Notes: a model not told the origin generated them from the letters alone. A stretch of 64,000 nt of DNA from SAR202 cluster bacterium bin90 (GCA_002238855.1 MPND01000006.1:35943-99942), one strand, 5' to 3'; counted from the stretch's first letter, positions 3,389-64,000 are shown. Numbers and translations are program-made.

Positions 3389-4753
3389 ATGCCCTATTCT
3401 TTCAGCCGCGTCGCGGTCGGTATAATAGCCGCCGTACTGTTCGCGGCAATGCTAACCGCCTGCTCGCAGCAGCCCGAACCGCAGCCGACCGCAGTCCCCA
3501 CAGCGGTTCCATCCGCCCCCACAGCAGCCCCTGAACCAGCGCCGACCACCGCTCCGGCGCCCGCGGCGACCACTGCGCCCGCACCCACGGCTGAGCCCGC
3601 GGCTACTGCTGCACCCACTGCCGAACCCGAACCGACGGCGATGGCTGAACCGGAAGCACCGGCGAAGAACTCATTCATCATTGGAGAGGGCACAATCGCC
3701 CGCTACAAGGTGGAGGAGGAACTTGCGCGACAAGGCTTCTTTGTAGCCACTGGCGAAACGACCGAAGTGGTCGGTCGCATCTCCTTCGACGACGACGGCG
3801 GGATCGTATCCGGCGAGAGCGGCATCGTATTGCAGGCAGCCACATTCAAGACGGACAGCGACCGCCGAGACCGCTTTGTGCGCGAGCGAACGCTTCAGAC
3901 CGCCGATTTCCCGGCGATTTCCTTCATTCCGACCTCTGCGGAAGGTCTGCCGTCACCGCTGAGCGAAGCAAGTGGCACTGTAGAGTTCACCCTCACCGGC
4001 GAACTCACCATCCGCGACCAGACGCGCCCGGTTACCTGGGATGTCGTGGCTGAATTCGGAGACGAGATCAAAGGCCTCGCCTCCCTTGAAACCACGTTTG
4101 AAGAGTTCGCGATGGAGAAGCCCAGCGTGGCGATCGTCATCAGCGTTGACGATACCATTCGCCTTGAGATCGACTTTGTGGGCACCTTCGAAGAGGCCGG
4201 CGCGATAAATGTTGACGGCGCCGATGACGAAGCCTACGCGCAGCTGCTCGGAGACGAGAGCGCGCCAGTCACCGTCATAGAGTTCTCCGACTTCCAATGA
4301 CCGTACTGCCAGAGTTTCGCCCTCGGGCCGGGGCGACAGATTATCGAGGACTTCGTTGAATCGGGCGAGGTTCGATTCGCATACCGCCATTTCATCGTAA
4401 TCGGCACGGAATCGGTGTTCGCCGCAATGGGCACCGAGTGCGCCGCGGAGCAGGATAAATTCTGGGAGTTCCACGACGCAATTTTCGACAACTGGAGCGA
4501 TGGCAGGCAGAACGGCTTTGGCTTCTTGTGGCTGCAAGGCACTGCCGAATCGCTGGCAATGGATACAACTCAATTCGAAGAGTGCATCCAAAGCGGTCGA
4601 GCATTCGAGCGCGTCAGGGCAAGCCAGATTGACGGCATGGGACGCGGCATCAACAGCACACCATCCGTATTCATCAACGGCGTTCGCGTCGGAGGCGCGG
4701 ACTACGAGGCATACCGCAGCGCAATCGAAGACGCGCTCGAGAGCAGCCCGTAG
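3389..4753 (+). CDS. Lipoprotein with Ala/Pro/Thr-rich linker, YceI-like domain and C-terminal DsbA-like thioredoxin domain; predicted selenoprotein with in-frame UGA at 4298..4300
   Basis: Lipobox LTAC near the N-terminus. YceI-like segment (ATFKTDSDRRDRFVRERTLQTADFPAISF). ORFs 3389..4300 and 4415..4753 are in the same frame with no other stop between them. Read-through gives VIEFSDFQ-[TGA]-PYCQSF...ECAAEQDKFWEFHD, the DsbA-family FQCPYC context with TGA at the first Cys. Confidence 0.6.
4317..4336 (+). promoter_or_regulatory. Candidate bacterial SECIS-like hairpin downstream of the in-frame UGA
   Basis: TCGCCC (4317..4322) pairs with GGGCGA (4331..4336) around an 8-nt G-containing loop. 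It starts 17 nt after the TGA, within the spacing expected for bacterial SECIS elements. Not folded computationally. Confidence 0.3.
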
Positions 4754-4825
4754 TCGGCGGCCAGCCCGTAGATTCCACTAGCACACCAACCAGGAAATCA
4801 TCGGCTGACCACCGGGATTTAGCTG

Positions 4826-6740: not shown

Positions 6741-7598
6741 ATGAACAAATACGAAGTAGCCCTATCGTTTGCTGGAGAGCAGCGACATTACGTCGAAGAA
6801 GTGGCACGAGGACTTCAGAGCCGAGGAATCGCTGTATTCTACGATGAATTTGAGAAGGTCAGCCTGTGGGGGAAAAGCCTAACTGAGGAGTTTCATAGAA
6901 TATTCGAGAATGATGCTGGGCGAGTTGTCATGTTTATATCAAGAGACTACGTCCAGAAGGCTTGGCCAAGGCATGAACGGCGATCTGTCCTTAGCAAGGC
7001 AGTTCATGAATCAACAGAATATGTACTACCGGTGCGCTTCGACGATACCAAAGTTCCAGGACTGCCTACTGATGTCAGCTACCTGCCTGCAGAGGAATAC
7101 TCGCCCAGTGAACTCGCCGCGATGATCGGAGAGAAATTAGGTGTAACTCGGTTCGCAGCAAAAGCATCCGATGTACCTCCTCCGCGTATGACATCCCTAA
7201 CAGGTGAGGTGGTGTTTGACTACGGAAGCCATAATGGGCGTTTCGTGATAGGGCGAGATGTGCTGGAATTTGAAACAAAGTGGAGTAGGGCGAGCAACAC
7301 GAGCATTTACGTTTACAATGACCCTCCATCGATAAACGGCGTTGCGCTGGCTCCGCGTGACTGCGTGAGCATCGGGAAGGTTGTTGATGCCCAACTTCTC
7401 GATTTCACCTCGCGCAGTCGGACCCCTCAAATCGGGCAGATCGTGATGTTCCGAAACACAAAAGGCTTCTATGCAGCGGTACAGATTCTGGGCATCAAAC
7501 ACGGTGGTCGGGGTGACGACAACTATGAACTGCGCTTTCGTTACGTCATCCAATCTGATGGCTCGGACGACTTCACAAGTTTGAGCACTTCTAACTAA
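6741..7598 (+). CDS. TIR-domain protein with unassigned C-terminal domain of about 150 aa
   Basis: N-terminus YEVALSFAGEQRHYVEEVARGLQSRGIAVFYDEFE...VVMFISRDYVQKAWPRHERRSVL matches the bacterial TIR pattern (S-F-A-G start, FIS..Y...W...E with the conserved Glu). Residues about 140..285 match no family I can name. The gene and its flanks are visibly AT-richer than the neighbours. Confidence 0.75.
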   Translation: MNKYEVALSFAGEQRHYVEEVARGLQSRGIAVFYDEFEKVSLWGKSLTEEFHRIFENDAGRVVMFISRDYVQKAWPRHERRSVLSKAVHESTEYVLPVRFDDTKVPGLPTDVSYLPAEEYSPSELAAMIGEKLGVTRFAAKASDVPPPRMTSLTGEVVFDYGSHNGRFVIGRDVLEFETKWSRASNTSIYVYNDPPSINGVALAPRDCVSIGKVVDAQLLDFTSRSRTPQIGQIVMFRNTKGFYAAVQILGIKHGGRGDDNYELRFRYVIQSDGSDDFTSLSTSN

Positions 7599-37778: not shown

Positions 37779-37878
37779 AGGGAAATCACGCTGTATCCCT
37801 TCACTCTGAATAGGAGAAGATGTGAATCTCAGTCAACCCGAACTCGTGCCAAGCCTTACGCAATCCTAACGAAAAACA

Positions 37879-37931
37879 CCTTCCCCCTTTGATGGGGGAA
37901 GGCTGCGATGGAGGTAAAAATCCTCTCCATC
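37879..37931. repeat. REP-like composite repeat, family A
   Basis: CCTTCCCCC-TTTGAT-GGGGGAAGG (37879..37902), followed by GATGGAGGTAAAAATCCTCTCCATC. Confidence 0.7.
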
Positions 37932-42789: not shown

Positions 42790-42803
42790 CACAATAATTT
42801 ATT

Positions 42804-42851
42804 CCTTCCCCCTCGATGGGGGAAGGTCAGGATGGGGGTGAAATCCTCATC
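42804..42851. repeat. REP-like composite repeat, family A
   Basis: CCTTCCCCC-TCGAT-GGGGGAAGG (42804..42826), then TCAGGATGGGGGTGAAATCCTCATC. Confidence 0.7.
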
Positions 42852-42881: not shown

Positions 42882-43175
42882 ATGCGAAGCATCATCATCG
42901 CAGCAGCAGCCATCATCCTTCTGGCAGCCACGCTCGCCCCCGTTGCCGTGGCAGCCGCCTACGACGGCGCACCCATAGTAAGCTCCACGGTTGAAACGCC
43001 CGCCCAGCAGCAACGCGGCGAAGCCGAACTACCCTGGCTTTTCGCCGTCTATGTCATCACCTGGGCAGCATTCTTCGCCTACGTCTTCATCATGTCCCGC
43101 AGACAGCGCGAAATGCAGCGCGAAATCGACACCCTAAAACGCGCCCTCGATGCTAAAATAGACCCGGAGCAATAG
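42882..43175 (+). CDS. ccmD: CcmD-like small heme exporter protein
   Basis: Single TM helix LFAVYVITWAAFFAYVFIM followed by basic SRRQREMQRE. Its position between ccmC and ccmE supports the call. Start set at ATG 42882. Confidence 0.6.
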   Translation: MRSIIIAAAAIILLAATLAPVAVAAAYDGAPIVSSTVETPAQQQRGEAELPWLFAVYVITWAAFFAYVFIMSRRQREMQREIDTLKRALDAKIDPEQ

Positions 43176-43176
43176 T

Positions 43177-43210
43177 CCCCTCTCCCTGAGGGAGAGGGTT
43201 AGGGCGAGGG
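43177..43210. repeat. REP-like repeat, family A-prime
   Basis: CCCTCTCCC-TGA-GGGAGAGGG-TTAGGGCGAGGGG. Confidence 0.7.
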
Positions 43211-43269
43211 GAAATGTAATTAGTGGCCTCAAGCACTGAAGTCTCACACACTTTAATGGGCGATCAGAT

Positions 43270-45688: not shown

Positions 45689-45720
45689 TCCCCTTTCTCG
45701 TTCTTTTGCTCTCAATAGTC

Positions 45721-45756
45721 CCCTCTCCCCGCGGGAGAGGGTTAGGATGGGGGTGA
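45721..45756. repeat. REP-like repeat, family A-prime
   Basis: CCCTCTCCC-CGC-GGGAGAGGG-TTAGGATGGGGGTGA. Confidence 0.7.
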
Positions 45757-45777
45757 TGTAGTGCCCCATCAATCCTA

Positions 45778-47619: not shown

Positions 47620-47633
47620 GGCACAAATAAATC

Positions 47634-47672
47634 CCTTCCTCCTTGATGGGGAAAGGCTAGGATGGGGGTGAA
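47634..47672. repeat. REP-like composite repeat, family A (imperfect)
   Basis: CCTTCCTCC-TTGAT-GGGGAAAGG-CTAGGATGGGGGTGA. Confidence 0.65.
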
Positions 47673-48652: not shown

Positions 48653-48657
48653 GCGCC

Positions 48658-48710
48658 ATCGGCGTCAACCGAACCCCAATCACCTCCTCGCACCACGCCG
48701 CAACCGCAAG
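48658..48710 (-). pseudogene. Relic copy of the amidase 3' end
   Basis: By hand alignment, 49 of 53 nt are identical to 49616..49668, the true amidase C-terminal codons. It translates as ILAVAAWCEEVIGVRLTPMA, compared with LLAVAAWCEAVVGVRLTPMG. Confidence 0.7.
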
Positions 48711-48742
48711 AATGGCAATGATTTCCGCGCTGTGTGCGGCTG

Positions 48743-49528
48743 TCAGGACTGCTGTTGGCGCAGGCGAGCAATTTCTTCCAGCAACTCGCGTTCACGCGCC
48801 TCTGATTCATCGGCGCGCGCTGCAGCAGCTTGGGCACGCGCTTCGGCGATTTGGGCACGCGCTTCCTCTTCAGCTATGCGCACTTCGGCAGCTTGGGCAC
48901 GCGCTTCGGCAACGGTGATCCTGTGCAGCGTCATGCCGGTTTCAGGGTCCAGCGCATCGAATTCCTGCCCATCCCAGTGGAACACCAAGTTCAGCAGCTC
49001 GCTGTATCCCCTCAACGAACCATCTTCATCTGCCAGAATCTCATACGGCTGATACACGCCGTCAACCAGCCTCTCGCCCGCAAGCGGCTGCCCGTAATAT
49101 TCGCCGCCCTTATGGTCGAACCGCCAGTATTCCTGCACCCCAAGCCTCTCATACAACTCGCGCTTGTGGCCAAGGTCGTTCGCCGCAGTGCTCTCAGAAG
49201 CCACCTCCATCACGAAATCGGGGACCTTGCCAATCTCCCATACCAAGTAGTTAGGCATTTCGCTATCGCGAATATACACCGCATCCACGCCGAAGGCGAT
49301 GAGGAAGTCCGGAGCGACGCGCCGGTTGCCGTTGGTTTCGTCGTAGAGTATGAACCCTCCCCCGGTGGCAAACACATCCGGGCTGTCTTTGTACATCTCA
49401 AACAGGATGCCTATCACTCGGTACAGGGGTGGAAATTGCAGCACTCGGTCCTCCGGCTCCGGCTCGTCGTAGAAACTCTTGGGATACTTCTCAAGCCAAG
49501 ATTTAGTAACTGTCTTGGTAGTCGCCAT
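48743..49528 (-). CDS. Uma2-family (DUF820) putative endonuclease with C-terminal Ala/Glu/Arg coiled-coil tail
   Basis: RVAPDFLIAFGVD...YLVWEIGKVPDFVMEVASEST...K...GVQEYWRFD fits the Uma2 PD-(D/E)xK pattern. The tail is AEARAQAAEVRIAEEEARAQIAEARAQAAAARA, encoded by the repeated TTGGGCACGCGCTTCGGC. Start at ATG 49528 with GGAGG upstream. Confidence 0.75.
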   Translation of the reverse strand: MATTKTVTKSWLEKYPKSFYDEPEPEDRVLQFPPLYRVIGILFEMYKDSPDVFATGGGFILYDETNGNRRVAPDFLIAFGVDAVYIRDSEMPNYLVWEIGKVPDFVMEVASESTAANDLGHKRELYERLGVQEYWRFDHKGGEYYGQPLAGERLVDGVYQPYEILADEDGSLRGYSELLNLVFHWDGQEFDALDPETGMTLHRITVAEARAQAAEVRIAEEEARAQIAEARAQAAAARADESEARERELLEEIARLRQQQS

Positions 49529-49605
49529 GCGAAGCCTCCGACATCCGTTTATGACTTCCATACGCCTGCATTATAACGCAGCCCCGAGACGAAGTTCATC
49601 ACATA

Positions 49606-50961
49606 CTACGTCCCCATCGGCGTCAACCGCACCCCAACCACCGCCTCGCACCACGCCGCCACCGCAAGCAGCCTCGCCTCCTCGAAGTGCCCCGCCACAA
49701 GCTGCACGCCCAGCGGCATCCCGCCCTCGCTCAGCCCCGACGGCAGCGTAATCTCCGGGAATCCTCCGAACGTCCACGGCGACTGGAACTTCGGATCGCC
49801 CGTAGTCTCGCGGCTCGGCGGCGCAGCAGCAGGAGTAGTCGGCATCAGCAGCGCATCATAGCCCCCAATCGCCGATTGCACACCACGTCTGAACTCACTC
49901 TGCAAATGCTTCGCCTTCAGGTACTCCAGCGCAGGCGTCCCCAACCCCTGCTCGATCAGTCCATGCACATTAGCCGAGAATTCGTCCGCCCGCACCGCAA
50001 AGTTGCCCTCGTGCACCTGCGCCCCCTCCACCGACATCAACGCACGCTGACCCACCAGCGCCGCATCAAAGTCCACCGGCAGCGACACCTCCTCGACCGC
50101 CGCACCCGCATCGCGCAGCTTCTCAGCCATCGATTCCGTGTTCGCGCGCGTCTCATCATCGCACTGCTCCATGAAGAACTGCCGCACCAGCCCGATTCGC
50201 GGCGGCCCGATCTTCGTCTGCGCCGCCCCCAGATAGTCCTCCACAGGTCGCTCCGACGAGTCCGCATCGTTGATGTCATGGCCCGCCAGCACATTCAACA
50301 TCAGTGCCGCATCCTCCACGCTCCGCACCATCGGCCCCATCGTATCCAGCGACTCCGACACCGGATACACGCCATGCCTGCTGACCCGCCCAAACGTCGG
50401 CTTCAGCCCCACAATCCCGTTGTACGAAGATGGCCGCACGATCGATCCCCCGGTCTGCGACCCCAGCGCAGCGGGAAACATCCCCACCGCCGCGCCCACC
50501 GCAGACCCGCTGCTCGACCCGCCCGGCGTATGCACCGCATTCCACGGGCTCACCGTAGGCGAGGGATCCCCGCACGCAAACTCAGTCGTAACCGTCTTGC
50601 CCATTATCACCGCGCCCGCCTGCCTCAGCAGCGCAACCGTCGTCGCGTCATACTCCGGCACAAACTCCGCGTATATCGTCGAGCCGCTAGTCGTCAACAC
50701 TCCCCGCGTGAAGTAGATGTCCTTGATGCCCACCGGCACCCCATGCAGCGGCCCCCGCGCTCCCTCGCTCGCCAGTTCACTGTCCCGCTCCCTCGCCGCC
50801 GCCATCGCAGCATCACCGTCCAGCGTAACCCACACCTTCAGCGCACCATCCAGCGCATCACACCGCGCCAGCAGCGCCTCCATCAGTTCCGCCGCCGACA
50901 CAGCCCTGCTCCGAATCATCCCCGCCGCCTCAACCACCCCAAGCTCATGCATCTCACTCAT
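49606..50961 (-). CDS. Amidase (amidase-signature family, GatA-like)
   Basis: The GGSSSGSA motif and the KD..F context are typical of AS-family amidases. 451 aa. Confidence 0.9.
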   Translation of the reverse strand: MSEMHELGVVEAAGMIRSRAVSAAELMEALLARCDALDGALKVWVTLDGDAAMAAARERDSELASEGARGPLHGVPVGIKDIYFTRGVLTTSGSTIYAEFVPEYDATTVALLRQAGAVIMGKTVTTEFACGDPSPTVSPWNAVHTPGGSSSGSAVGAAVGMFPAALGSQTGGSIVRPSSYNGIVGLKPTFGRVSRHGVYPVSESLDTMGPMVRSVEDAALMLNVLAGHDINDADSSERPVEDYLGAAQTKIGPPRIGLVRQFFMEQCDDETRANTESMAEKLRDAGAAVEEVSLPVDFDAALVGQRALMSVEGAQVHEGNFAVRADEFSANVHGLIEQGLGTPALEYLKAKHLQSEFRRGVQSAIGGYDALLMPTTPAAAPPSRETTGDPKFQSPWTFGGFPEITLPSGLSEGGMPLGVQLVAGHFEEARLLAVAAWCEAVVGVRLTPMGT

Positions 50962-51636: not shown

Positions 51637-51812
51637 AGACCTGCTCAGTCCCCATGTGGCCCCATGTGGCTAGTTGTTCGATGGCGAATTCGCCTTTTTC
51701 AGCGGCATCCACAAGCAACAATCTGTGATATAATCCACCGCAGACATTTAGTCTCATATATGTCTCAGCAGGAAAAAGCGCATTCAGGTAGACGGATGTA
51801 CAGGAGGTGGAG

Positions 51813-52226
51813 ATGGATGCACTAAGACGAGTGGTGGGAGCAGTGTTGCTTCTGACTGCCGTGCTAGTCGGCATATACTTCGTCGTCGACCAGCTTGAAA
51901 TCCTGCCCTTCCTCTGGCCGCCGCTCAACTACTTGATGGCCGTTGCTGCAGCGCTCGGCGTCATCTTCGCCTACCTGCGAAAGCACAGCCTCGAAGCAGC
52001 AGGCCTCGACCGCATCGTAACGCGTCGCTACCTCGAAGCCAACATCCTCTTCTACGGCTTCATCGCAATCGCAATGCTCTTCTTCTGGAACTGGTTCGAC
52101 CTGCTAGTCGATACCGACCCGCAAGACACCGACCGCCACATAGTCTGGATCATCGTCGACACCGTGGGCCCTCTGCTATGGGGCGCGCTCGGCATGCACC
52201 TCCTGCGCGGCGGCAACGACGACTAG
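51813..52226 (+). CDS. Small 4-TM membrane protein, paralog 1 of 3
   Basis: Shares the FFWNWF.LL and W.IVD...P.L.GA.G..LL motifs with the next two genes. AGGAGG lies 6 nt upstream of ATG 51813. Confidence 0.65.
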   Translation: MDALRRVVGAVLLLTAVLVGIYFVVDQLEILPFLWPPLNYLMAVAAALGVIFAYLRKHSLEAAGLDRIVTRRYLEANILFYGFIAIAMLFFWNWFDLLVDTDPQDTDRHIVWIIVDTVGPLLWGALGMHLLRGGNDD

Positions 52227-52237
52227 ACATGCCCGTC

Positions 52238-52257
52238 ATTCCCGCTCAGGCGGGAAT
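52238..52257. repeat. REP-like hairpin, family B
   Basis: ATTCCCG-CTCAGG-CGGGAAT followed by CCAGAG. Same unit as at 12888..12907. Confidence 0.65.
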
Positions 52258-52327
52258 CCAGAGATGGACGCCCGAAGCGGGCAATCGGTAGTGACAACGT
52301 AACCGCAGACGAAAGGAGCGGCAACGC

Positions 52328-52771
52328 ATGGACATCCTCAAGAAAATCGTAGGCATAATCCTGCTCGTGGTAGCGGTAGTAGTAGCCGTACACACCATAG
52401 TAGAACCACTCTACTTCGACAGCAGCCAGTCCGGAAGCGGCAACAGCGAAGGCGTTTGGGCGATCATCAACCCGCTCTCTGCAATAACCGTGATTCTCGG
52501 CCTCATCTTCGGCTACTTGCGCAAGCGCGACGCAGACGCCGCAGACGAAACAACGGTCACCCGCGAATTCCTCACAGCCAACACAATCTTCTTCGGCTTC
52601 CTATTCATCGGCATAATGTTCTTCTGGAACTGGTTCAACCTGCTCAGCCCCGCATTCAACGCCATCGGCCCCGACGCCGTCGCTCTCACATGGATCATCG
52701 TCGACGCAGGCCTGCCCATCCTCGCCGGCGCACTCGGCGTTCACCTCCTCCTCGCTGGCACCGAGGAATAG
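52328..52771 (+). CDS. Small 4-TM membrane protein, paralog 2 of 3
   Basis: MDILKKIVGIILLVVAVVVAVHTIVEPLY...FFWNWFNLLSPAFNAIGPDAVALTWIIVDAGLPILAGALGVHLL. Highly similar to paralog 3. Confidence 0.7.
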   Translation: MDILKKIVGIILLVVAVVVAVHTIVEPLYFDSSQSGSGNSEGVWAIINPLSAITVILGLIFGYLRKRDADAADETTVTREFLTANTIFFGFLFIGIMFFWNWFNLLSPAFNAIGPDAVALTWIIVDAGLPILAGALGVHLLLAGTEE

Positions 52772-52790
52772 GTCGTTGTAGCGCTTAATG

Positions 52791-52815
52791 CCCTTCCCTC
52801 TTTGATAGGGGAAGG
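52791..52815. repeat. REP-like repeat, family A (imperfect)
   Basis: CCCTTCCCTCTTTGATAGGGGAAGG, followed by an AGCCTGTCCC...GGCATGGG module. Confidence 0.55.
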
Positions 52816-52900
52816 TTAAAGCCTGTCCCGGCGAAGGCATGGGATTGCTGCGAAACGGAAATCGCGCTATGGAAGTAGCAGACAAAAGGAGCAACAACTA

Positions 52901-53335
52901 ATGGACATGCTCAAGAAAATCATAGGCATCTTGCTCATCGTCGTCGGTGCCGCCGTCGCCATCCACACCGTAGTCGAGCCGCTCTACCACGCATCGAGCG
53001 AATCCCAGCCATACGCCCCGCTATGGAACATCCTCGACCCCATCATGGCGGTCGCCATCGTCCTGACCATCATCTTCGGCCACATCCGCAAGCGCAACGC
53101 GTGTGCTGAGAATGAGACGGTCGTCACCCGCGAGTTCCTGTCGGCAAATGTCGTCTTCTACGGCATCGTATTCATCGGCATCATCTTCTTCTGGAACTAT
53201 TTCAACCTGCTCAGCCCCGCATACAACGCCATCGGCCCCGACGCCGTCTCCCTCGCATGGATTATCATCGACGCCGCACTCCCACTACTGCTCGGCGCAA
53301 TGGGCGTATCCATGCTCAAAACCGAAGACGCCTGA
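52901..53335 (+). CDS. Small 4-TM membrane protein, paralog 3 of 3
   Basis: MDMLKKIIGILLIVVGAAVAIHTVVEPLY...FFWNYFNLLSPAYNAIGPDAVSLAWIIIDAALPLLLGAMGVSML. Confidence 0.7.
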   Translation: MDMLKKIIGILLIVVGAAVAIHTVVEPLYHASSESQPYAPLWNILDPIMAVAIVLTIIFGHIRKRNACAENETVVTREFLSANVVFYGIVFIGIIFFWNYFNLLSPAYNAIGPDAVSLAWIIIDAALPLLLGAMGVSMLKTEDA

Positions 53336-53383
53336 TCCCTACCAGGCCTGTCCCTTCTCTCTCTGGGTGAGGGCAGCAAAAAA

Positions 53384-53467
53384 CCTTCCCCCTCGATGGG
53401 GGAAGGCTGTAGCCCGTCCTGAGCTTGTCAATGGGATGGGGAAAGGGAGAAAAATTCCTCCCCATCC
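53384..53467. repeat. REP-like composite repeat, family A (full-length)
   Basis: CCTTCCCCC-TCGAT-GGGGGAAGG (53384..53406) plus GGATGGGGA...TCCCCATCC, a 9-bp stem (53434..53467). Confidence 0.7.
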
Positions 53468-57280: not shown

Positions 57281-57487
57281 ATGCAACTCACGGTGACTCT
57301 TTACCAGGACGAGGACGAGGTCTGGGTCGTCGAATGTCCGGCTATACCCGGCTGTGTAAGCCAAGGTCAAACAAGGTCAGAGGCTCTCAACAATATTCGC
57401 GAGGCAATTACTCTATGCCTCGAAGTACGCGCCGAGCAAGGCTACCCACTGACCGTAGAGACCGAGCAGGTGGAAGTGGCGCTATAA
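57281..57487 (+). CDS. hicB: HicB-family antitoxin
   Basis: VTLYQDEDEVWVVECPAIPGCVSQGQTRSEALNNIREAITLCLE is the HicB N-terminal fold pattern. Confidence 0.8.
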   Translation: MQLTVTLYQDEDEVWVVECPAIPGCVSQGQTRSEALNNIREAITLCLEVRAEQGYPLTVETEQVEVAL

Positions 57488-57708
57488 TGCCTCCACTTCC
57501 CAACCTGAGTGGCAGGGAAGCCGTTAGGAACTTCCAGCGTTTTGGTTGGAATGTAGCTCGGCAAAGGGGCAGTCACATTATCCTGACAAAGCAGGGCGAA
57601 ATTGCAACCCTGTCTGTCCCGAACCACAGGCGTGTCTCTAAAGGGACCCTACGAACTCTGATTCGTTCAGCAAGACTCACAGTTGACGAGTTCTGCGACG
57701 CTCTTTGA
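57487..57708 (+). CDS. hicA: HicA-family toxin
   Basis: LSGREAVRNFQRFGWNVARQRGSHIILTK...VPNH...GTLRTLIRSA. The ATG overlaps the hicB stop by 1 nt. It is hidden inside the longer track ORF 57229..57708. Confidence 0.8.
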   Translation: MPPLPNLSGREAVRNFQRFGWNVARQRGSHIILTKQGEIATLSVPNHRRVSKGTLRTLIRSARLTVDEFCDAL

Positions 57709-60444: not shown

Positions 60445-61620
60445 TTGACACGCATAGAATCCTCGCTCCCATCCCTCCTGATCTCCATCCCCGAAGGCGT
60501 CATCGACCTCGGCTGGGGCCACCCGTCCCCGCATCTGCACCCGACCGACATGCTGCGCCGCGCAACAGAAATCGCCCTTGCTGATGGTACCCCCGTCCCC
60601 CTTCAGTACGGAGCCACACAGGGCTACGGCCCCCTCCTGCACTCCCTCGCCGACTTCCTCACCGCCCAGGAGTCCTACACATCGCCCGTGTCACCCAGCG
60701 AACTCTTCCTAACCGCCGGCGCATCGCAGGCGATAGACCACACCACCACGCTCTTCACGCAGACCGGCGACACCGTGTTCGTCGAAGAGCCGACCTACTA
60801 CCTCATCCAGAGCATCTTCGAGGACCACGGCCTCAATGTCGTAGGCGTCCCCACCGACGCTAACGGCCTGCGTACGGACGCCCTCGAAGCGATGCTAAAC
60901 TCCCCCGACACACCGCGCCCCAGAATGCTATACATCATCCCCACCTACCAGAACCCTAGCGGCAGCGTCCTCCCCGCCGACCGCCGCCGCACCCTCGTCG
61001 AACTCGCACAGCATCACGACTTCCTAGTCCTAGCCGACGAGGTATACAACCTGCTCCATTACGGCACGCCACCTCCCCCACCAATCGCATCCTTCGACGA
61101 CTCCGAAGACGGCTGCGTAATCTCGCTCGGCTCATTCTCCAAGATTCTCGGCCCCGGCCTCCGCACCGGCTGGCTTCAGGCTCGCCCTCCGATAATTCAG
61201 CGCTTCGCCAACGCCGGCCTCACAATCAGCGGCGGCGGCCTCAACCACTTCACATCCACGCTAGTCCACGCCGTCCTCGAACACGGCATGCTGCAAGACA
61301 ACATCGCCCTACTTCGCCGCACCTACGCCCAGCGCGTCTCAGCAATGGCAACGGCCCTCCGCGACCACCTCGGCGACGCCGTCGAGTTCACCGCACCCGG
61401 CGGCGGATACTTCTTCTGGCTCACCTTCACCGACGGCACCAACACCGACGACCTGCTGCCAGTCGCGCAGGAACACGGCGTAAACTACCGCCCCGGCACC
61501 GCCTTCTCCGCATCCAACTCATTCACCAACGCCATCCGCCTCGCCTTCGCCCTCTACGAACCCGACACCCTCACCGAAGGCATCCACCGCATCGCAAAGT
61601 CGCATAGAGAATTGAGATAA
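60445..61620 (+). CDS. PLP-dependent aminotransferase (class I/II fold)
   Basis: YQNPSG and SFSKILGPGLRTGW (PLP lysine) motifs. TTG start. Confidence 0.85.
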   Translation: MTRIESSLPSLLISIPEGVIDLGWGHPSPHLHPTDMLRRATEIALADGTPVPLQYGATQGYGPLLHSLADFLTAQESYTSPVSPSELFLTAGASQAIDHTTTLFTQTGDTVFVEEPTYYLIQSIFEDHGLNVVGVPTDANGLRTDALEAMLNSPDTPRPRMLYIIPTYQNPSGSVLPADRRRTLVELAQHHDFLVLADEVYNLLHYGTPPPPPIASFDDSEDGCVISLGSFSKILGPGLRTGWLQARPPIIQRFANAGLTISGGGLNHFTSTLVHAVLEHGMLQDNIALLRRTYAQRVSAMATALRDHLGDAVEFTAPGGGYFFWLTFTDGTNTDDLLPVAQEHGVNYRPGTAFSASNSFTNAIRLAFALYEPDTLTEGIHRIAKSHRELR

Positions 61621-61682
61621 TATAAGCAAACGGCGAGCGTCCGGTAACAGTTCCGCACAATTCGCGTGTTACTATAGAATGT

Positions 61683-61889
61683 ATGAACGGCAGGGAGTTT
61701 GTCAGGAGAGCCCGACGTTACGCTCGCAGAAATAGATTGATCTTCGACTTTGATCCCACTCGCGGTAAGGGCAGCCATGGCAAGCTCACCATTGGCGGTC
61801 GCAGCACAATCGTACAGCACGGCGAGATTCCACGACGCACTTTCGCCGCAATGCTCAGACAACTCGAAATTCATCGTGAGGAGTTCTAG
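61683..61889 (+). CDS. hicA: HicA-family toxin
   Basis: GREFVRRARRYARRNRLIFDFDPTRGKGSHGKLTIGGRSTIVQHGEIPRRTFAAMLRQLEI. Confidence 0.75.
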   Translation: MNGREFVRRARRYARRNRLIFDFDPTRGKGSHGKLTIGGRSTIVQHGEIPRRTFAAMLRQLEIHREEF

Positions 61890-61892
61890 GCA

Positions 61893-62402
61893 ATGCGATA
61901 TGCATTCCCATGCGACATTGTTTTGGATCACGAAGAGGCAAAGGCTACGGGACGAGAAGCCTATGTGATAACTTTTCCCGATGTTCCCGAAGCGATCTCA
62001 GGCGCCTGGTCCTGGCAAGAGGCTTTGGAGATGGCAGAGGATTGCTTGGCGGTCGCCCTTAGCATTTATGTTGATAAGTGCGAAGACATCCCTACACCCA
62101 GCCCACTCGCCGATGGCCAAGTCCTCATCGCTGTTCCCATCATCGTAGCCGCAAAGCTCACCCTCTACACAGCCATGCGCGAACAGGACCTGAGCGCCCA
62201 AGACCTCAAAGCCAAGTTGGATATGTCCGATCACACTATCCAAACGCTCCTAACCCCTCATCGCTTCTCTCACATCAGCCAGATCGAGCGCGCACTCAAG
62301 GCCGTTGGCCGCTCCCTGATAGTCGAAGACATGGAAACAGGTCTGACGAAACCCTCTCATCATCCCATTATGAAAGAGCGAGATGCAGCACCGGCAGCAT
62401 AG
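61893..62402 (+). CDS. hicB: HicB-family antitoxin with C-terminal HTH
   Basis: YVITFPDVPEAISGAWSWQEALEMAEDCLAVAL (HicB fold), followed by an HTH-like segment TAMREQDLSAQDLKAKLDMSDHTIQTLL. Confidence 0.75.
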   Translation: MRYAFPCDIVLDHEEAKATGREAYVITFPDVPEAISGAWSWQEALEMAEDCLAVALSIYVDKCEDIPTPSPLADGQVLIAVPIIVAAKLTLYTAMREQDLSAQDLKAKLDMSDHTIQTLLTPHRFSHISQIERALKAVGRSLIVEDMETGLTKPSHHPIMKERDAAPAA

Positions 62403-62416
62403 CCGATTCTGAGAGT

Positions 62417-62521
62417 CCCGGCACCGTCTTCACCGCATACAGCACATTTTTCTAACACCATCTGCCCCACTTCGCCCTCTACGAACCCGAAATACTCGCC
62501 GAAGGTATCCGCCGCCGCGCA
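62417..62521 (+). pseudogene. Relic copy of the aminotransferase 3' end
   Basis: Aligns with 61492..61596 over about 105 nt (roughly three quarters identical by hand), including the perfect 20-mer TTCGCCCTCTACGAACCCGA (61546..61565 = 62471..62490). It translates PGTVFTAYSTFF*HHLPHFALYEPEILAEGIRR, compared with PGTAFSASNSFTNAIRLAFALYEPDTLTEGIHR. Confidence 0.75.
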
Positions 62522-62621
62522 CTTTTATGTAGGTCAGCGCGGCGCCTGGGCATGAAATCCTCTGCTTCCCACCCTCAACCATGCTAAAATTACTCAGCAC
62601 ATTTTCATTCGGGGTACACCT

Positions 62622-64000
62622 ATGCCAGACTTCTTGACCGGCGACGAAATACGAGAAAAGTTCCTCAGCTACTTCGAGGCGCAGGGACACACTAGGCACG
62701 CGAGCTCATCGCTGATCCCGGTCGGCGACCCCACGCTCCTACTGACTACCGCTGGCATGGTCCAGTTCAAACCCTACTTCACCGGCGAGGCGGAGCCGTC
62801 CAACAGGCGCGCCACCACCTCCCAGAAGTGCTTCCGCACCCCTGACATCGAGGAGGTCGGCGACGCCACCCACAACACCCTCTTCGAAATGCTTGGCAAC
62901 TTCAGCTTCGGCGACTACTTCAAGTCAAACGCCGTCGATTTCGCCGTCGAGCTTATGACCGAAGGCTACGGTATCCCGCTCGACAAATTCTCCGCCGCAA
63001 TCCACAACACCGACGAGGAGACCCGCGGCCTGTGGGAGGCAAAAGGCATTCCCGCCGACAAGGTGTACAGCTACGGCGACGACGAAAACTGGTGGGGACC
63101 GGCAGGCGACGAAGGCCCCTGCGGACCCTGCAGCGAGCTTCACTACGACTACGGCGCAGAATTCGGCTGCCTGCAGGACGACTGCGCCCCCAACTGCACC
63201 AACGTAATGGCGGACGGCGTCGTCTGCGACCGCTACGTCGAGTTGTGGAACCTCGTCTTCATGCAGTACTACCACCACCTCGACGGCACGCGCACACCTC
63301 TGCCCGCGCCCAGCGTGGACACCGGCATGGGCTTCGAGCGACTAGTCCGCATCCTGCAAGATGTAAACACCGCCTACGAGACCGACCTCTTCACGCCCAT
63401 CATCGCCGCCGTAGAGCGCGTCAGCGGCAAGAGCTACGACAACCCCGACGACACCTACGCCATCCGCGTGGTCGCAGAGCACGGTCGCAGCGTAACCTTC
63501 CTCATCGCAGACGGCGTAGTCCCCGGCAATGAAGGTCGCGGCTACGTCCTGCGCCGGGTCATCCGCCGAGCCATCCGCTACGCCCGCAGGCTGGGCATCG
63601 AAGGCAACTTCCTCGGCGAAATTGCCGACGCCACCATCGACAGAATGGGCAAGGTCTACCCCGAACTCGTAAACAACCGTGACTTCATTCTCACCGTGCT
63701 CCGCCTCGAAGAAGAACGCTTCCAGCAGGCATTCCAGAACGGCTACAACATGCTCACGGAAGCATTGGAAGATGTGAAAACCCTCGACGGCTCAACCATG
63801 TTCCGCCTCTGGGACACCTACGGCTTCCCACCCGAAATGACGCAGGAAATCGCTGCTGAGCAGGGCGTTTCCGTGGACACCGAAGGCTTCGAGCGCGAGA
63901 TGGAAGCGCAGCGCCAGCGCGGCAGGGCGTCCGCCCAGTTCGGCGAGGAGCTTGCCAAGATCCAGCAGTACCAGAGCCTCGGCGTAGGCGCAACCCAATT
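62622..64000 (+). CDS. alaS: Alanine--tRNA ligase, N-terminal part (continues beyond the window end)
   Basis: Translation from ATG 62622 is MPDFLTGDEIREKFLSYFEAQGHTRHASSSLIPVGDPTLLLTTAGMVQFKPYF...FEMLGNFSFGDYFK...WGP.GPCGPCSE, which are class II AlaRS motifs. It is open to position 64000, so it is absent from the ORF track. Confidence 0.95.
   Translation, partial: MPDFLTGDEIREKFLSYFEAQGHTRHASSSLIPVGDPTLLLTTAGMVQFKPYFTGEAEPSNRRATTSQKCFRTPDIEEVGDATHNTLFEMLGNFSFGDYFKSNAVDFAVELMTEGYGIPLDKFSAAIHNTDEETRGLWEAKGIPADKVYSYGDDENWWGPAGDEGPCGPCSELHYDYGAEFGCLQDDCAPNCTNVMADGVVCDRYVELWNLVFMQYYHHLDGTRTPLPAPSVDTGMGFERLVRILQDVNTAYETDLFTPIIAAVERVSGKSYDNPDDTYAIRVVAEHGRSVTFLIADGVVPGNEGRGYVLRRVIRRAIRYARRLGIEGNFLGEIADATIDRMGKVYPELVNNRDFILTVLRLEEERFQQAFQNGYNMLTEALEDVKTLDGSTMFRLWDTYGFPPEMTQEIAAEQGVSVDTEGFEREMEAQRQRGRASAQFGEELAKIQQYQSLGVGATQ

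What the first reader, a model, noticed from the sequence alone, without database searches (positions are those of the whole stretch)
61492..62521. hicAB cassette bracketed by a ~105-bp duplication of the aminotransferase 3' end (intact copy on the gene, decayed relic beyond the cargo)
**Duplication.** The last ~105 nt region of the aminotransferase CDS (61492..61596) recurs at 62417..62521, starting 15 nt after the hicB stop. The two copies share the perfect 20-mer TTCGCCCTCTACGAACCCGA (61546..61565 and 62471..62490).

**State of the copies.** The distal copy still reads as the aminotransferase C-terminus (PGTVFTAYSTFF*HHLPHFALYEPEILAEGIRR), but it carries an in-frame stop and many substitutions.

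**Cargo.** Everything between the copies (61621..62416) is an AT-richer hicA-hicB module.

**Interpretation.** This is the footprint expected when an incoming element integrates into the 3' end of a gene and brings its own replacement 3' end, as tRNA- or gene-end-targeting islands do. A Campbell-type single crossover through a short homologous segment would leave the same footprint. Here the cargo is only a TA pair and no recombinase is present. The same architecture recurs at two other loci in this window.
Basis: seen in the sequence. Interest (0 to 1): 0.7.

Follow-up and report, generated by a model that had tools for sequence, protein, structure and literature searches.

The report
Ancient hicAB insertion duplicating gene end
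A small toxin-antitoxin gene pair was inserted long ago into the last codons of an aminotransferase gene of a sponge-associated Dehalococcoidia bacterium, copying about 114 bases of the gene end in the process; this matches a recombinase-free insertion footprint already described for restriction-modification genes, so it is a clean new example, not a new kind of element.

Summary
Bases 61492-61596 recur at 62417-62521 (84/104 identical, two indels, a perfect 21-mer; self-BLAST E 5e-17). The pair brackets an intact, lower-GC hicA-hicB module.

Eleven related Dehalococcoidia loci settle the polarity:
- One species (L002) has an empty site where both copies align to a single segment.
- The distal copy runs on into the native C-terminal tail and the alaS promoter. 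It is therefore the displaced original gene end.
- The gene's present last five codons (RELR*) come from the insert.

The insertion is old. It occurs in all three sub-clades, is fixed in this species, and hicAB is under purifying selection. The two copies are kept near-identical by gene conversion in some species and have decayed here.

The window holds a second case of the same architecture: the amidase 3' end, a Uma2 nuclease gene, then a relic, again with an empty site in a relative. No recombinase gene lies within five called genes on either side of the hicAB site, nor among the genes called around the amidase site.

The closest known phenomenon is "insertion with long target duplication", described for restriction-modification systems. 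The mechanism remains inferred. I rate it a new member of a known kind, of moderate interest.

The parts
60445..61620 (+). Class I/II aminotransferase gene (391 aa). It is intact, but its last five codons and stop come from the insert.
   Evidence: Pfam PF00155, E 2e-37. Orthologues at 80-94% identity in L001-L009 and L011.
61492..61605 (+). Proximal copy of the duplicated target X (114 nt), the functional 3' end of the gene (PGTAFS...IAKSH).
   Evidence: Self-blastn E 5e-17. Homology between proximal and distal copies ends sharply after GCGCA[CT] in L003, where the copies are 113/114 identical.
61606..62416 (+). Inserted DNA E (811 nt). It holds the new tail RELR* (61606-61620), a promoter/operator region, hicA, hicB and a 14-nt right end.
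   Evidence: Absent from the empty site in L002. Present with the same left and right junctions in L003, L004 and L005. GC 0.53 against 0.62-0.64 for the neighbours.
61667..61675 (+). Extended -10-like element TGTTACTAT, 7 nt before the hicA ATG. It is the likely promoter of the cassette, giving a leaderless or near-leaderless transcript (inferred).
   Evidence: Read from the sequence. TGnTATCAT stands in the same position in L032, L033 and L035.
61683..61889 (+). hicA (68 aa), the putative toxin.
   Evidence: Pfam PF07927 E 2.6e-4, below the gathering score. PDB 1whz E 0.097, with the KGSH motif. dN/dS 0.07-0.38 across species.
61893..62402 (+). hicB (169 aa), the antitoxin. This form is a +1 frameshift read-through of the 150-aa form usual in the family.
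   Evidence: Pfam PF15919. PDB 6hpb/6u0i E 6e-17. dN/dS 0.07-0.20. Family lengths; alignment.
62417..62530 (+). Distal copy of X. It is the decayed relic of the original 3' end, with an in-frame stop, one insertion and one deletion.
   Evidence: 84/104 identical to the proximal copy. It keeps three ancestral states that the gene has since lost.
62531..62621 (+). Remnant of the ancestral C-terminal tail, plus the native aminotransferase-alaS spacer with the conserved alaS promoter (TGCTAAAAT, 62581-62589).
   Evidence: Aligns with the sequence that directly follows X in the empty site L002 and after the distal copies in L003, L006, L007 and L011.
62622..64000 (+). alaS (alanyl-tRNA synthetase), cut by the end of the window. 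It is the downstream flank of the site.
   Evidence: Pfam PF01411, E 5e-157.
49606..50961 (-). Second case: the amidase gene. Its last two codons (GT*) are new, and its 3' end is the proximal repeat.
   Evidence: Pfam PF01425. Alleles that carry Uma2 are 451 aa with the tail xP*/GT*. The empty-site allele of L030 is 453 aa with the tail xPxx* (...TPMVPTA*); other relatives of this length were not checked for an empty site.
48743..49561 (-). Second case: the cargo, a Uma2-family (PD-(D/E)XK) nuclease gene with its own TATAAT promoter.
   Evidence: Pfam PF05685 E 7e-16. PADLOC PDC-S03 E 3e-11. GC3 0.66 against 0.80.
48654..48758 (-). Second case: relic of the amidase 3' end (...AVAAWCEEVIGVRLTPMAPSA*). 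It still abuts the end of the convergent ECF sigma-factor gene (48652), as in the empty site.
   Evidence: blastn 93% over 55 nt. tblastn 35 aa, E 4e-8. The empty-site locus L030 has the same tail-to-sigma junction.

Best explanation
**What happened.** The locus is the fossil of a single, ancient 'insertion with long target duplication'. An 811-nt piece of foreign DNA entered the chromosome of an ancestor of this Dehalococcoidia clade. It carried a self-promoted hicA-hicB toxin-antitoxin module. The insertion point lay just after the His codon, about nine codons before the aminotransferase stop. The 114 nt upstream of that point ended up on both sides of the insert.

**Consequences for the gene.**
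- The upstream copy stayed joined to the gene, which now ends in five insert-encoded codons (RELR*).
- The downstream copy stayed joined to the original tail, the spacer and the alaS promoter. It lost all function.

**What has happened since (shown by comparison).**
- hicAB has been kept by purifying selection.
- The two repeats have been homogenised by gene conversion in some species and have drifted apart in this one.
- Recombination between the repeats can delete the cassette and restore an 'empty' site.
- The cassette has been exchanged between related species by homologous recombination in the flanks.

**How the insertion was made (inferred, not shown).** I favour a recombinase-independent route:
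1. Illegitimate or break-repair joining of the two ends of a linear fragment to staggered positions on two sister chromosome copies, or the equivalent template switching.
2. Selection then keeps only those events whose junction falls in a dispensable gene tail or a spacer. This is why the duplicated stretch covers a gene 3' end.
For: **Polarity**
- Both repeats align to one single-copy segment of the empty site (L002 7048-7155).
- The distal copies of the window, L003, L006, L007 and L011 continue into L002-type tail, spacer and alaS promoter. The proximal copies continue into insert sequence.
- The outgroup L010 has a tail ...AAAVKGGVA*, which resembles the displaced tail type (AEAHSKAGVRTA* / AAAHREAGGYRA*) and not RELR*.

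**Single origin**
- The left junction AGAGA[AC][TC]TG... is shared by the window, L004, L007 and L011.
- The right junction GCATAGCCGATTCTGA.AGT|CCCGGC is shared by the window, L003 and L005.

**Age**
- hicAB is present in all three sub-clades of the flank tree.
- hicAB dS is 0.5-1.2, against 0.33-0.90 for the flanks.
- The relic keeps three ancestral states that the genes of the window, L009 and L001 have replaced.
- The locus is fixed in the species: all contigs found through the exact HicB or the exact epimerase sequence are 99.8-100% identical over the parts they cover, and every epimerase-bearing contig carries hicAB.

**Selection.** dN/dS is 0.07-0.38 for hicA and 0.07-0.20 for hicB.

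**Gene conversion.** Within-genome repeat identity is 113/114 (L003), 70/70 (L006), 73/78 (L007) and 72/78 (L011), against 84/104 here. The L003 and L006 copies share host-specific substitutions.

**Exchange.** L007 and L011 share hicAB at 97.7% identity while their flanks are 91% identical.

**No mobility gene.** Pfam calls for the genes around both sites show no integrase or transposase.

**Recurrence with an unrelated target.** The amidase/Uma2 site has the same anatomy and an empty site in L030.

**Precedent.** Furuta et al. 2010 (PMC2853133) describe insertions of restriction-modification genes with direct target duplications from 46 bp to about 420 bp and no mobile-element genes. [quoted passage not shown]
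Against: - The joining mechanism is not observable in a footprint this old. Junction microhomology cannot be assessed because no donor locus is known.
- Gene conversion erases the information that would tell an originally identical target duplication from an element-borne copy of the gene end.
- The described precedent concerns restriction-modification systems, whose own nucleases were proposed to supply the DNA break. HicA is an RNase and cannot do that.
- Presence of hicAB in all three clades could also reflect spread of the whole repeat-flanked unit by homologous recombination, not one ancestral gain. The hicAB tree is not congruent with the flank tree.
- Two related hicAB cassettes elsewhere (L032, L035) have no long flanking repeats. 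The duplication is therefore a property of the event, not of the cassette.
Confidence: 0.62

Rival explanations
1. Campbell-type integration. A small circular DNA carrying hicAB plus a copy of the aminotransferase 3' end integrated by one RecA-mediated crossover within the 114-nt homology. Such a circle could be excised from a relative by recombination between its own repeats. This would leave the same repeat-cargo-repeat structure.
For: - The structure is exactly what a single crossover gives.
- Repeat-mediated excision is plausible. L002 is empty and is sister to L003, which has 113/114-identical repeats.
- The cassette clearly moves between related species (L007/L011 hicAB 97.7% against flanks 91%).
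- A 21-nt perfect match survives even in the decayed pair.
Against: - It explains propagation of an existing repeat-flanked unit, not how the first one arose. Some illegitimate event is still needed to put a gene fragment and hicAB on one circle.
- A homology of 114 nt or less is a poor RecA substrate.
- The shared left and right junctions in all species are equally explained by vertical descent.
Confidence: 0.2
2. Site-specific integration. hicAB is the last remnant of a larger integrative island whose tyrosine or serine recombinase targeted the aminotransferase 3' end. The island's attP carried a substitute gene end, and the integrase and the rest of the island were later deleted.
For: - Islands that target gene 3' ends leave direct repeats and a displaced gene end.
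- Toxin-antitoxin modules are common survivors of decayed islands (general knowledge, from memory).
- Other cargo lies in the same spacer: a DUF3800 gene in L009 and REP-like elements in L008.
Against: - No integrase lies between the aminotransferase gene and alaS in any of the nine related species loci that span the site, and none is called around the site in the same-species contigs. The inserts there are at most 1.4 kb.
- The repeat is 114 nt, with no sign of a short conserved core.
- In L003 and L006 both arms carry host-specific substitutions.
- The DUF3800 insert in L009 has no duplication, and its junction cannot be shown to be the same.
- The second case in the window has a completely different repeat sequence and would need another recombinase.
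- Related cassettes in L032 and L035 carry no aminotransferase-like segment.
- HicB has no close relative in the viral contig collection.
Confidence: 0.1
3. Reverse polarity. hicAB was native downstream of the aminotransferase gene, and a fragment [gene end - tail - alaS] from an empty-site relative was pasted in. Homology-facilitated illegitimate recombination anchored in alaS would do this, making the distal copy the newcomer.
For: - It gives the same final structure.
- Recombination between these species at this locus is evident.
Against: - It needs a pre-existing empty-site lineage as donor anyway.
- The outgroup tail resembles the displaced tail type.
- hicAB has foreign composition (GC3 0.58-0.59 against about 0.80).
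- The relic shares derived states with its own genome's gene, and the L003 and L006 repeats are host-type on both sides.
Confidence: 0.05
4. Chance similarity, or the remnant of an independent paralogous aminotransferase.
For: None beyond the low (79%) identity.
Against: - Self-blastn E 5e-17. The alignment score of 98 compares with a maximum of 31 in 2000 shuffles.
- The relic is collinear with the orthologous tail, spacer and alaS promoter of the empty site.
- Much better preserved copies stand at the same position in L003, L006, L007, L011 and L033.
Confidence: 0.01

Closest known systems
Insertion with long target duplication of restriction-modification gene complexes (Nobusato et al. 2000, Gene 259:99; Furuta, Abe & Kobayashi 2010, PMC2853133)
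   Same: - A small, self-contained 'addictive' gene module with no transposase or integrase.
- It is flanked by direct repeats tens to hundreds of bp long, and both repeats align to one copy in an empty-site genome.
- The repeats span the stop codon of the neighbouring gene, so the gene survives.
- The insert has deviant GC content.
   Different: - The cargo here is a type II toxin-antitoxin pair (and, at the second site, a lone Uma2 nuclease), not a restriction-modification system.
- The host is a Dehalococcoidia (Chloroflexota) bacterium.
- The published cases were found by comparing strains or closely related genomes; here the event is old enough to show gene conversion, decay, repeat-mediated loss and inter-species exchange.
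- A nuclease encoded by the cargo cannot be invoked for hicAB.
Integrative islands or prophages that target the 3' end of tRNA or protein genes and carry a substitute gene end in attP
   Same: - Direct repeats made of a gene 3' end bracket the cargo.
- The gene stays intact and the displaced end is left beyond the cargo.
   Different: - No recombinase gene in any of the related loci.
- The substitute end is only five codons.
- The repeat is long and host-like on both arms.
- A second site in the window has an unrelated target sequence.
Minimal mobile elements of Neisseria (Saunders & Snyder 2002; recalled from memory, not re-read because the literature search timed out)
   Same: One chromosomal slot between two conserved housekeeping genes holds different small cargo in different lineages: hicAB, DUF3800, REP-like elements or nothing. 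The cargo apparently moves by homologous recombination in the flanks, without any recombinase.
   Different: Minimal mobile elements are not defined by a target duplication. Natural transformation is unknown for these uncultured bacteria.
HicAB type II toxin-antitoxin systems (E. coli HicAB, PDB 6hpb/6u0i)
   Same: - Gene order hicA then hicB.
- HicB residues 23-142 align with E. coli HicB at E 6e-17.
- HicA is about 68 aa and has the GSH motif.
   Different: - HicA scores below the Pfam gathering cut-off.
- HicB carries a 19-residue frameshift-derived C-terminal extension.
- Activity is untested.

Membership tests
Insertion with long target duplication (criteria of Furuta et al. 2010) | The insert is flanked by direct repeats longer than 30 bp. 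| tested here: met
   The repeat unit is 114 nt (84/104 identical here; 113/114 in L003). The second site has at least 55 nt at 93%.
Insertion with long target duplication (criteria of Furuta et al. 2010) | Both repeats align to one single-copy sequence in a related genome that lacks the insert (an empty site). | tested here: met
   In L002, the segment 7048-7155 matches both copies and is followed directly by alaS. L030 is the empty site for the amidase case.
Insertion with long target duplication (criteria of Furuta et al. 2010) | The insert is short (under 20 kb), with no transposase, integrase or phage genes in it or in the five flanking genes. | tested here: met
   The insert is 811 nt. 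Neighbours are HTH_3, GSDH, DUF423, HicB-like, HpcH, Lactamase_B, epimerase, the aminotransferase, then alaS, RuvX, Asp_DH, DUF502 and Glyoxalase. At the second site they are ADH, PNPOx, ECF sigma, zf-HC2 and ETF.
Insertion with long target duplication (criteria of Furuta et al. 2010) | The repeat is not a dispersed high-copy repeat of the genome. | tested here: inconclusive
   There are only two copies in the 64-kb window and none in other fetched loci outside this site. The whole genome could not be searched.
Insertion with long target duplication (criteria of Furuta et al. 2010) | The cargo is a restriction-modification system (the class for which the phenomenon was described). | tested here: not met
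   The cargo is hicAB. At the second site it is a lone Uma2 nuclease with no methyltransferase. The structural criteria are met but the cargo class differs.
HicAB type II toxin-antitoxin | An antitoxin with a HicB fold. | tested here: met
   PF15919 scores 33.8 bits, above the cut-off of 27. PDB 6hpb/6u0i match at E 6e-17.
HicAB type II toxin-antitoxin | A HicA toxin domain passing the curated threshold. | tested here: inconclusive
   PF07927 scores 21.5 bits, below the cut-off of 27 (E 2.6e-4). PDB 1whz matches at E 0.097. There is no NCBIfam hit. Adjacency to hicB, size and the KGSH motif all fit.
HicAB type II toxin-antitoxin | Toxicity of HicA and its neutralisation by HicB. | not testable with these tools
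   Only indirect evidence: both genes are under purifying selection (dN/dS 0.07-0.38).
Integrase-mediated island targeting a gene 3' end | A tyrosine or serine recombinase gene in or beside the element. | tested here: not met
   None in the window locus or in any related locus that spans the site.
Integrase-mediated island targeting a gene 3' end | The element carries its own copy of the target (attP) wherever it occurs. | tested here: not met
   Related hicAB cassettes in L032 and L035 carry no aminotransferase-like segment. This rests on two loci only.
Minimal mobile element | Alternative cargo between the same conserved flanking genes in related genomes. | tested here: met
   Between the aminotransferase gene and alaS the related loci hold hicAB, DUF3800, REP-like elements or nothing.
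Minimal mobile element | Transfer by transformation and flanking homologous recombination. | not testable with these tools
   The only evidence is an incongruence: L007 and L011 share hicAB at 97.7% while their flanks are 91% identical.

The most novel reading that the evidence does not exclude
These sponge-associated Dehalococcoidia may have a dedicated, trans-acting insertion route not yet described. It would place promoter-bearing selfish or defence cassettes (hicAB, Uma2 nuclease, perhaps DUF3800) into the last codons of housekeeping genes, with a 55-115-nt target duplication. Two cases in 64 kb would then be the visible tip of a genome-wide class of recombinase-less mobile cassettes.
Probability: 0.08. 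Interest if true: 0.75.

Novelty: new member of a known kind. Interest (0 to 1): 0.35.

Why it matters
How chromosomal toxin-antitoxin modules get into 'ordinary' positions with no mobile element attached is still poorly documented.

**What this locus adds**
- A well-resolved example, with an empty site, a displaced gene end and shared junctions across at least seven species.
- It shows that the long-target-duplication footprint known for restriction-modification genes also applies to a type II toxin-antitoxin pair and to a lone Uma2 nuclease, in a distant phylum.
- It shows the afterlife of such an insertion:
  - gene conversion between the repeats;
  - repeat-mediated loss;
  - decay of the relic;
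  - a chimeric C-terminus on the host gene;
  - exchange of the cassette between species.

**Practical point.** Short pseudo-3'-ends downstream of small accessory genes can serve as markers for ancient insertions in metagenome-assembled genomes. Near-identical copies can also break assemblies.

It does not reveal a new mechanism or a new type of element.

Tried and rejected
- **A third gene-end duplication in the window.** I compared the C-terminal 50-60 residues of every ORF of at least 90-110 aa with the window and with its own 3.5 kb downstream. Only the aminotransferase and the amidase gave hits.
- **The repeat pair 43170-43218 / 45713-45760 and similar pairs.** These are REP-like palindromic elements, not gene ends.
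- **Metagenome scan with the amidase.** It returned only distant homologues (63% identity or less), useless for the empty-site test. I replaced it with a protein search plus contig look-ups.
- **Within-species empty sites.** Every contig carrying the exact HicB or the exact upstream epimerase has the same locus.
- **Flanking repeats or aminotransferase fragments around related hicAB cassettes elsewhere (L032, L035).** None found. Homology with the window is confined to the coding parts, so no donor locus can be defined.
- **Viral contigs with a close HicB relative.** None.
- **A structured RNA between hicB and alaS (for example a T-box leader).** No Rfam hit at E <= 1. No convincing terminator either.
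- **A junction shared exactly by hicAB, DUF3800 (L009) and the REP insert (L008).** I considered this and dropped it. The fast-evolving tail makes those junctions ambiguous, and L009's tail may simply be a diverged native tail.
- **NCBIfam.** It gave nothing for HicA, HicB, Uma2 or the DUF3800 protein, and only sub-threshold coiled-coil matches for the 241-aa ORF of L027.
- **Literature.** Several full-text searches timed out. I therefore could not check whether this footprint has already been reported for classical toxin-antitoxin loci. The comparison with Neisseria minimal mobile elements rests on memory.
Full report
**1. The observation**

The last part of the aminotransferase gene (61492-61596) recurs at 62417-62521.
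- The two stretches are 84/104 identical, with one insertion and one deletion, and share a perfect 21-mer (61545-61565 = 62470-62490).
- A self-BLAST of the window gives E = 5e-17. The local alignment score is 98, against 17.3 +/- 2.6 (maximum 31) in 2000 shuffles.
- The distal copy begins 15 nt after the hicB stop.
- Between the copies lie hicA (61683-61889) and hicB (61893-62402). HicB matches Pfam PF15919 and the E. coli HicB structures 6hpb/6u0i (E 6e-17). HicA is a weaker match: PF07927 E 2.6e-4, below the curated cut-off, and PDB 1whz E 0.097.
- The insert is 53% GC with GC3 of 0.58-0.59. Its neighbours are 62-64% GC with GC3 of about 0.80.
- Ten independent contigs from at least eight samples are 99.8-100% identical to the window over whatever part of 61300-62700 each one covers: six span all 1401 nt, and nine are 100% identical while L019 differs at 2 nt. 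The structure is therefore real and fixed in this species.

**2. Relatives and polarity**

A scan of one genome per species found eleven related loci, all Dehalococcoidia metagenome-assembled genomes. Nine of them span the site.

| State between the aminotransferase gene and alaS | Loci |
|---|---|
| Nothing: the aminotransferase gene is followed directly by alaS | L002 |
| hicAB, 74-83% identical to the window copy over the 660 nt common to all alleles (blastn pieces up to 88%) | L003, L004, L005, L006, L007, L011 (also L033, L034) |
| About 390 nt of REP-like palindromic elements | L008 |
| A DUF3800 gene on the opposite strand, with no duplication | L009 (closest relative, 94% identical in the flanks) |

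Both window repeats align to the same single-copy segment of L002 (7048-7155). A multiple alignment of all gene ends and all distal copies shows where homology stops.
- The two kinds of copy are homologous from CCCGGC to GCGCA[CT]. This is 114 nt, 61492-61605 in the window.
- After that point the proximal copies continue into insert sequence (AGAGAATTG..., encoding RELR*).
- The distal copies continue into sequence homologous to L002's own C-terminal tail (L002 ...AEAHSKAGVRTA*; L007 distal ...AAAHREAGGYRA*). They then run into the spacer and the conserved alaS promoter (CCATGCTAAAATT).

The distal copy is thus the original 3' end of the gene, displaced by the insertion. The working gene carries a five-codon tail supplied by the insert. 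The more distant aminotransferase of L010 ends ...AAAVKGGVA*, which resembles the displaced tail type. This supports that polarity.

**3. Age and later history**

*One origin.* The left junction is shared by the window, L004, L007 and L011. The right junction (GCATAGCCGATTCTGA.AGT|CCCGGC) is shared by the window, L003 and L005. The structure therefore arose once.

*Distribution.* A tree from 4.5 kb of flanking sequence gives three sub-clades, and hicAB occurs in all three.

*Divergence and selection.*

| Measure | Value |
|---|---|
| hicAB dS between species | 0.5-1.2 |
| Flank dS, window against the other species | 0.33-0.90 |
| Flank dS, window against L009 | 0.21-0.24 |
| hicA dN/dS | 0.07-0.38 |
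| hicB dN/dS | 0.07-0.20 |

The module has been kept as a working unit for a long time.

*Fate of the repeats.* Within-genome identity of the two copies varies widely.

| Locus | Identity between the two copies |
|---|---|
| L003 | 113/114 |
| L006 | 70/70 |
| L007 | 73/78 |
| L011 | 72/78 |
| L033 | 65/70 |
| Window | 84/104, plus two indels |

In L003 and L006 both copies carry that lineage's own substitutions although the junctions are inherited. This indicates gene conversion.

In the window, the relic keeps three ancestral states that the genes of the window, L009 and L001 have replaced, and it shares two derived ones. It therefore stopped being converted on the stem leading to the window/L009 pair, before those two split. 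The L009 lineage must later have lost hicAB and the relic.

*Loss and exchange.*
- L002 is sister to L003, so its empty site is most simply a deletion by recombination between near-identical repeats. It could instead be a surviving ancestral allele.
- The hicAB tree does not match the flank tree. L007 and L011 share hicAB at 97.7% while their flanks are 91% identical, and two hicB 3' alleles are distributed across clades. The cassette has therefore also been exchanged between species, presumably by homologous recombination in the flanks.

*The hicB length variants.* The 169-aa HicB of the window is a +1 frameshift read-through of the 150-aa form that is the norm in the family.

**4. A second case in the window**

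The amidase gene (49606-50961, minus strand) is followed by a Uma2-family nuclease gene (48743-49561). A relic of the amidase C-terminus comes next (48654-48758). It is 93% identical over 55 nt, and 35 residues match at tblastn E 4e-8.

- The relic keeps a different tail (...TPMAPSA*). It abuts the end of the convergent ECF sigma-factor gene.
- In L030 (same assembly as L003) the site is empty. There a 453-aa amidase ends ...TPMVPTA*, with the same overlap onto the sigma-factor gene.
- All four amidase alleles seen with a Uma2 insert or its remnant (window, L028, L029, L031) are 451 aa, with a new two-codon tail followed by the insert's left end and a TATAAT promoter.
- L028 also keeps a relic (89% over 54 nt). 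In L029 and L031 the relic is largely gone.

The repeat sequence and the cargo are unrelated to those of the first site. A systematic search found no third gene-end duplication in the window. The other repeat pairs are REP-like elements or tandem paralogues.

**5. Mechanism**

*Shown.* Foreign DNA was inserted a few codons before a stop codon. The roughly 55-114 nt upstream of the junction are duplicated in direct orientation. No integrase or transposase lies in the insert or among the neighbouring genes. Related hicAB cassettes in two other contexts have neither long flanking repeats nor an aminotransferase fragment: L032 lies between recA and a peptidase gene, and L035 between a peptidase and a phosphatidyltransferase gene. 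No close relative of HicB was found on viral contigs.

[quoted passage not shown] Selection would then keep only junctions that fall in a dispensable tail or spacer, which explains why the duplicated stretch covers a gene 3' end.

*Rivals.*
- A Campbell-type single crossover of a circle carrying repeat plus cargo gives the same product. It may well explain later spread between relatives, but not the first formation.
- A lost integrase cannot be strictly excluded. Nothing supports it, and it would need a different enzyme for the second site.

**6. Comparison with what is known**

Furuta, Abe and Kobayashi (2010, PMC2853133), following Nobusato et al. (2000), describe this anatomy for restriction-modification gene complexes.
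- The inserts are under 20 kb and lack mobility genes.
- They are flanked by direct repeats of 46 to about 420 bp, and both repeats align to one copy in an empty-site genome.
[quoted passage not shown] The mechanism is unknown; DNA breakage was suggested.
- A later review (PMC3874152) attributes this mode to restriction-modification systems and does not mention it for classical toxin-antitoxin loci.

All structural criteria are met here. Uniqueness of the repeat could be tested only within the sequence I held. The cargo class differs.

The variable content of the slot between the aminotransferase gene and alaS also resembles the 'minimal mobile elements' of Neisseria. That comparison is from memory, because the literature search timed out.

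**7. Verdict**

  - The repeat is a duplicated host target, not an element-borne gene end.
  - The event is ancient and vertically inherited.
  - There is no evidence for site-specific integration.
  - Only one other locus in the window shares the architecture.
- This is a new member of a known kind and is of moderate interest.
- The most novel reading not excluded is a dedicated insertion route for such cassettes in this clade. I give it about 8%.

Noticed in passing
window 37877-37905, 42803-42842, 43173-43213, 45716-45758, 47633-47672, 53383-53408; also L005 ~4700-4790 and L008 ~7190-7460: A family of REP-like palindromic elements (CCTTCCCCCT..GGGGGAAGG[CT]xAGGATGGGGGTGA and CCCCTCTCCC..GGGAGAGGGTTAGG) sits in intergenic spacers. 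In relatives the same family fills the spacer between the aminotransferase gene and alaS (L008) and interrupts the relic (L005).
   Followed up: partly
window 57281-57708 (+): A second hic module in reversed order: a 68-aa HicB-like antitoxin gene (57281-57487, PF15919) followed by a HicA-like ORF (~57487-57708, ...RQRGSHIILTK...). It lies between a DUF423 gene and an HpcH-like gene, with no flanking duplication.
   Followed up: partly
L003 7262-7981; L007 7265-7990: The hicA stop codon is lost in these two species. HicA and HicB are then read as one fused ORF, reaching 239 aa in L003; in L007 the same frame stays open from 7073 and gives a 305-aa ORF.
   Followed up: no
window 62336-62402: The 169-aa HicB of the window (also L003 and L005) arises from a 1-nt insertion that shifts the usual stop of the 150-aa form out of frame. 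This adds 19 residues read from formerly non-coding insert sequence.
   Followed up: partly
L009 7262-8377 (-); L027 4915-5640 and L028 5993-6718: Other small cargo occupies the same two slots in relatives. A DUF3800 gene replaces hicAB in the closest relative. A 241-aa coiled-coil ORF with no Pfam match follows the amidase gene in L027 and L028. Neither has a target duplication.
   Followed up: partly
L001 7140 (end of contig CAZWDM010000035.1): This contig ends exactly at the last base of the 114-nt repeat unit. An assembly break there is what near-identical repeat copies would cause.
   Followed up: no
L007 and L011, hicAB region: The hicAB genes of these two species are 97.7% identical although their flanks are only 91% identical. 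L006, which is closer to L011 in the flanks, has an 82% identical cassette. This points to recent exchange of the cassette between species.
   Followed up: partly
window 61667-61685, 62581-62589, ~49575-49560 (-): hicA and Uma2 each have a -10-like element (TGTTACTAT, extended, before hicA; TTATAAT before Uma2) only 7-8 nt before the start codon, which suggests leaderless transcripts. The conserved alaS promoter TGCTAAAAT lies in the retained ancestral spacer.
   Followed up: no
window 51807-53335 (+): Three tandem paralogous genes encode small membrane proteins of 139, 147 and 144 aa, 72% identical at the DNA level between the second and third. They are conserved in relatives.
   Followed up: no
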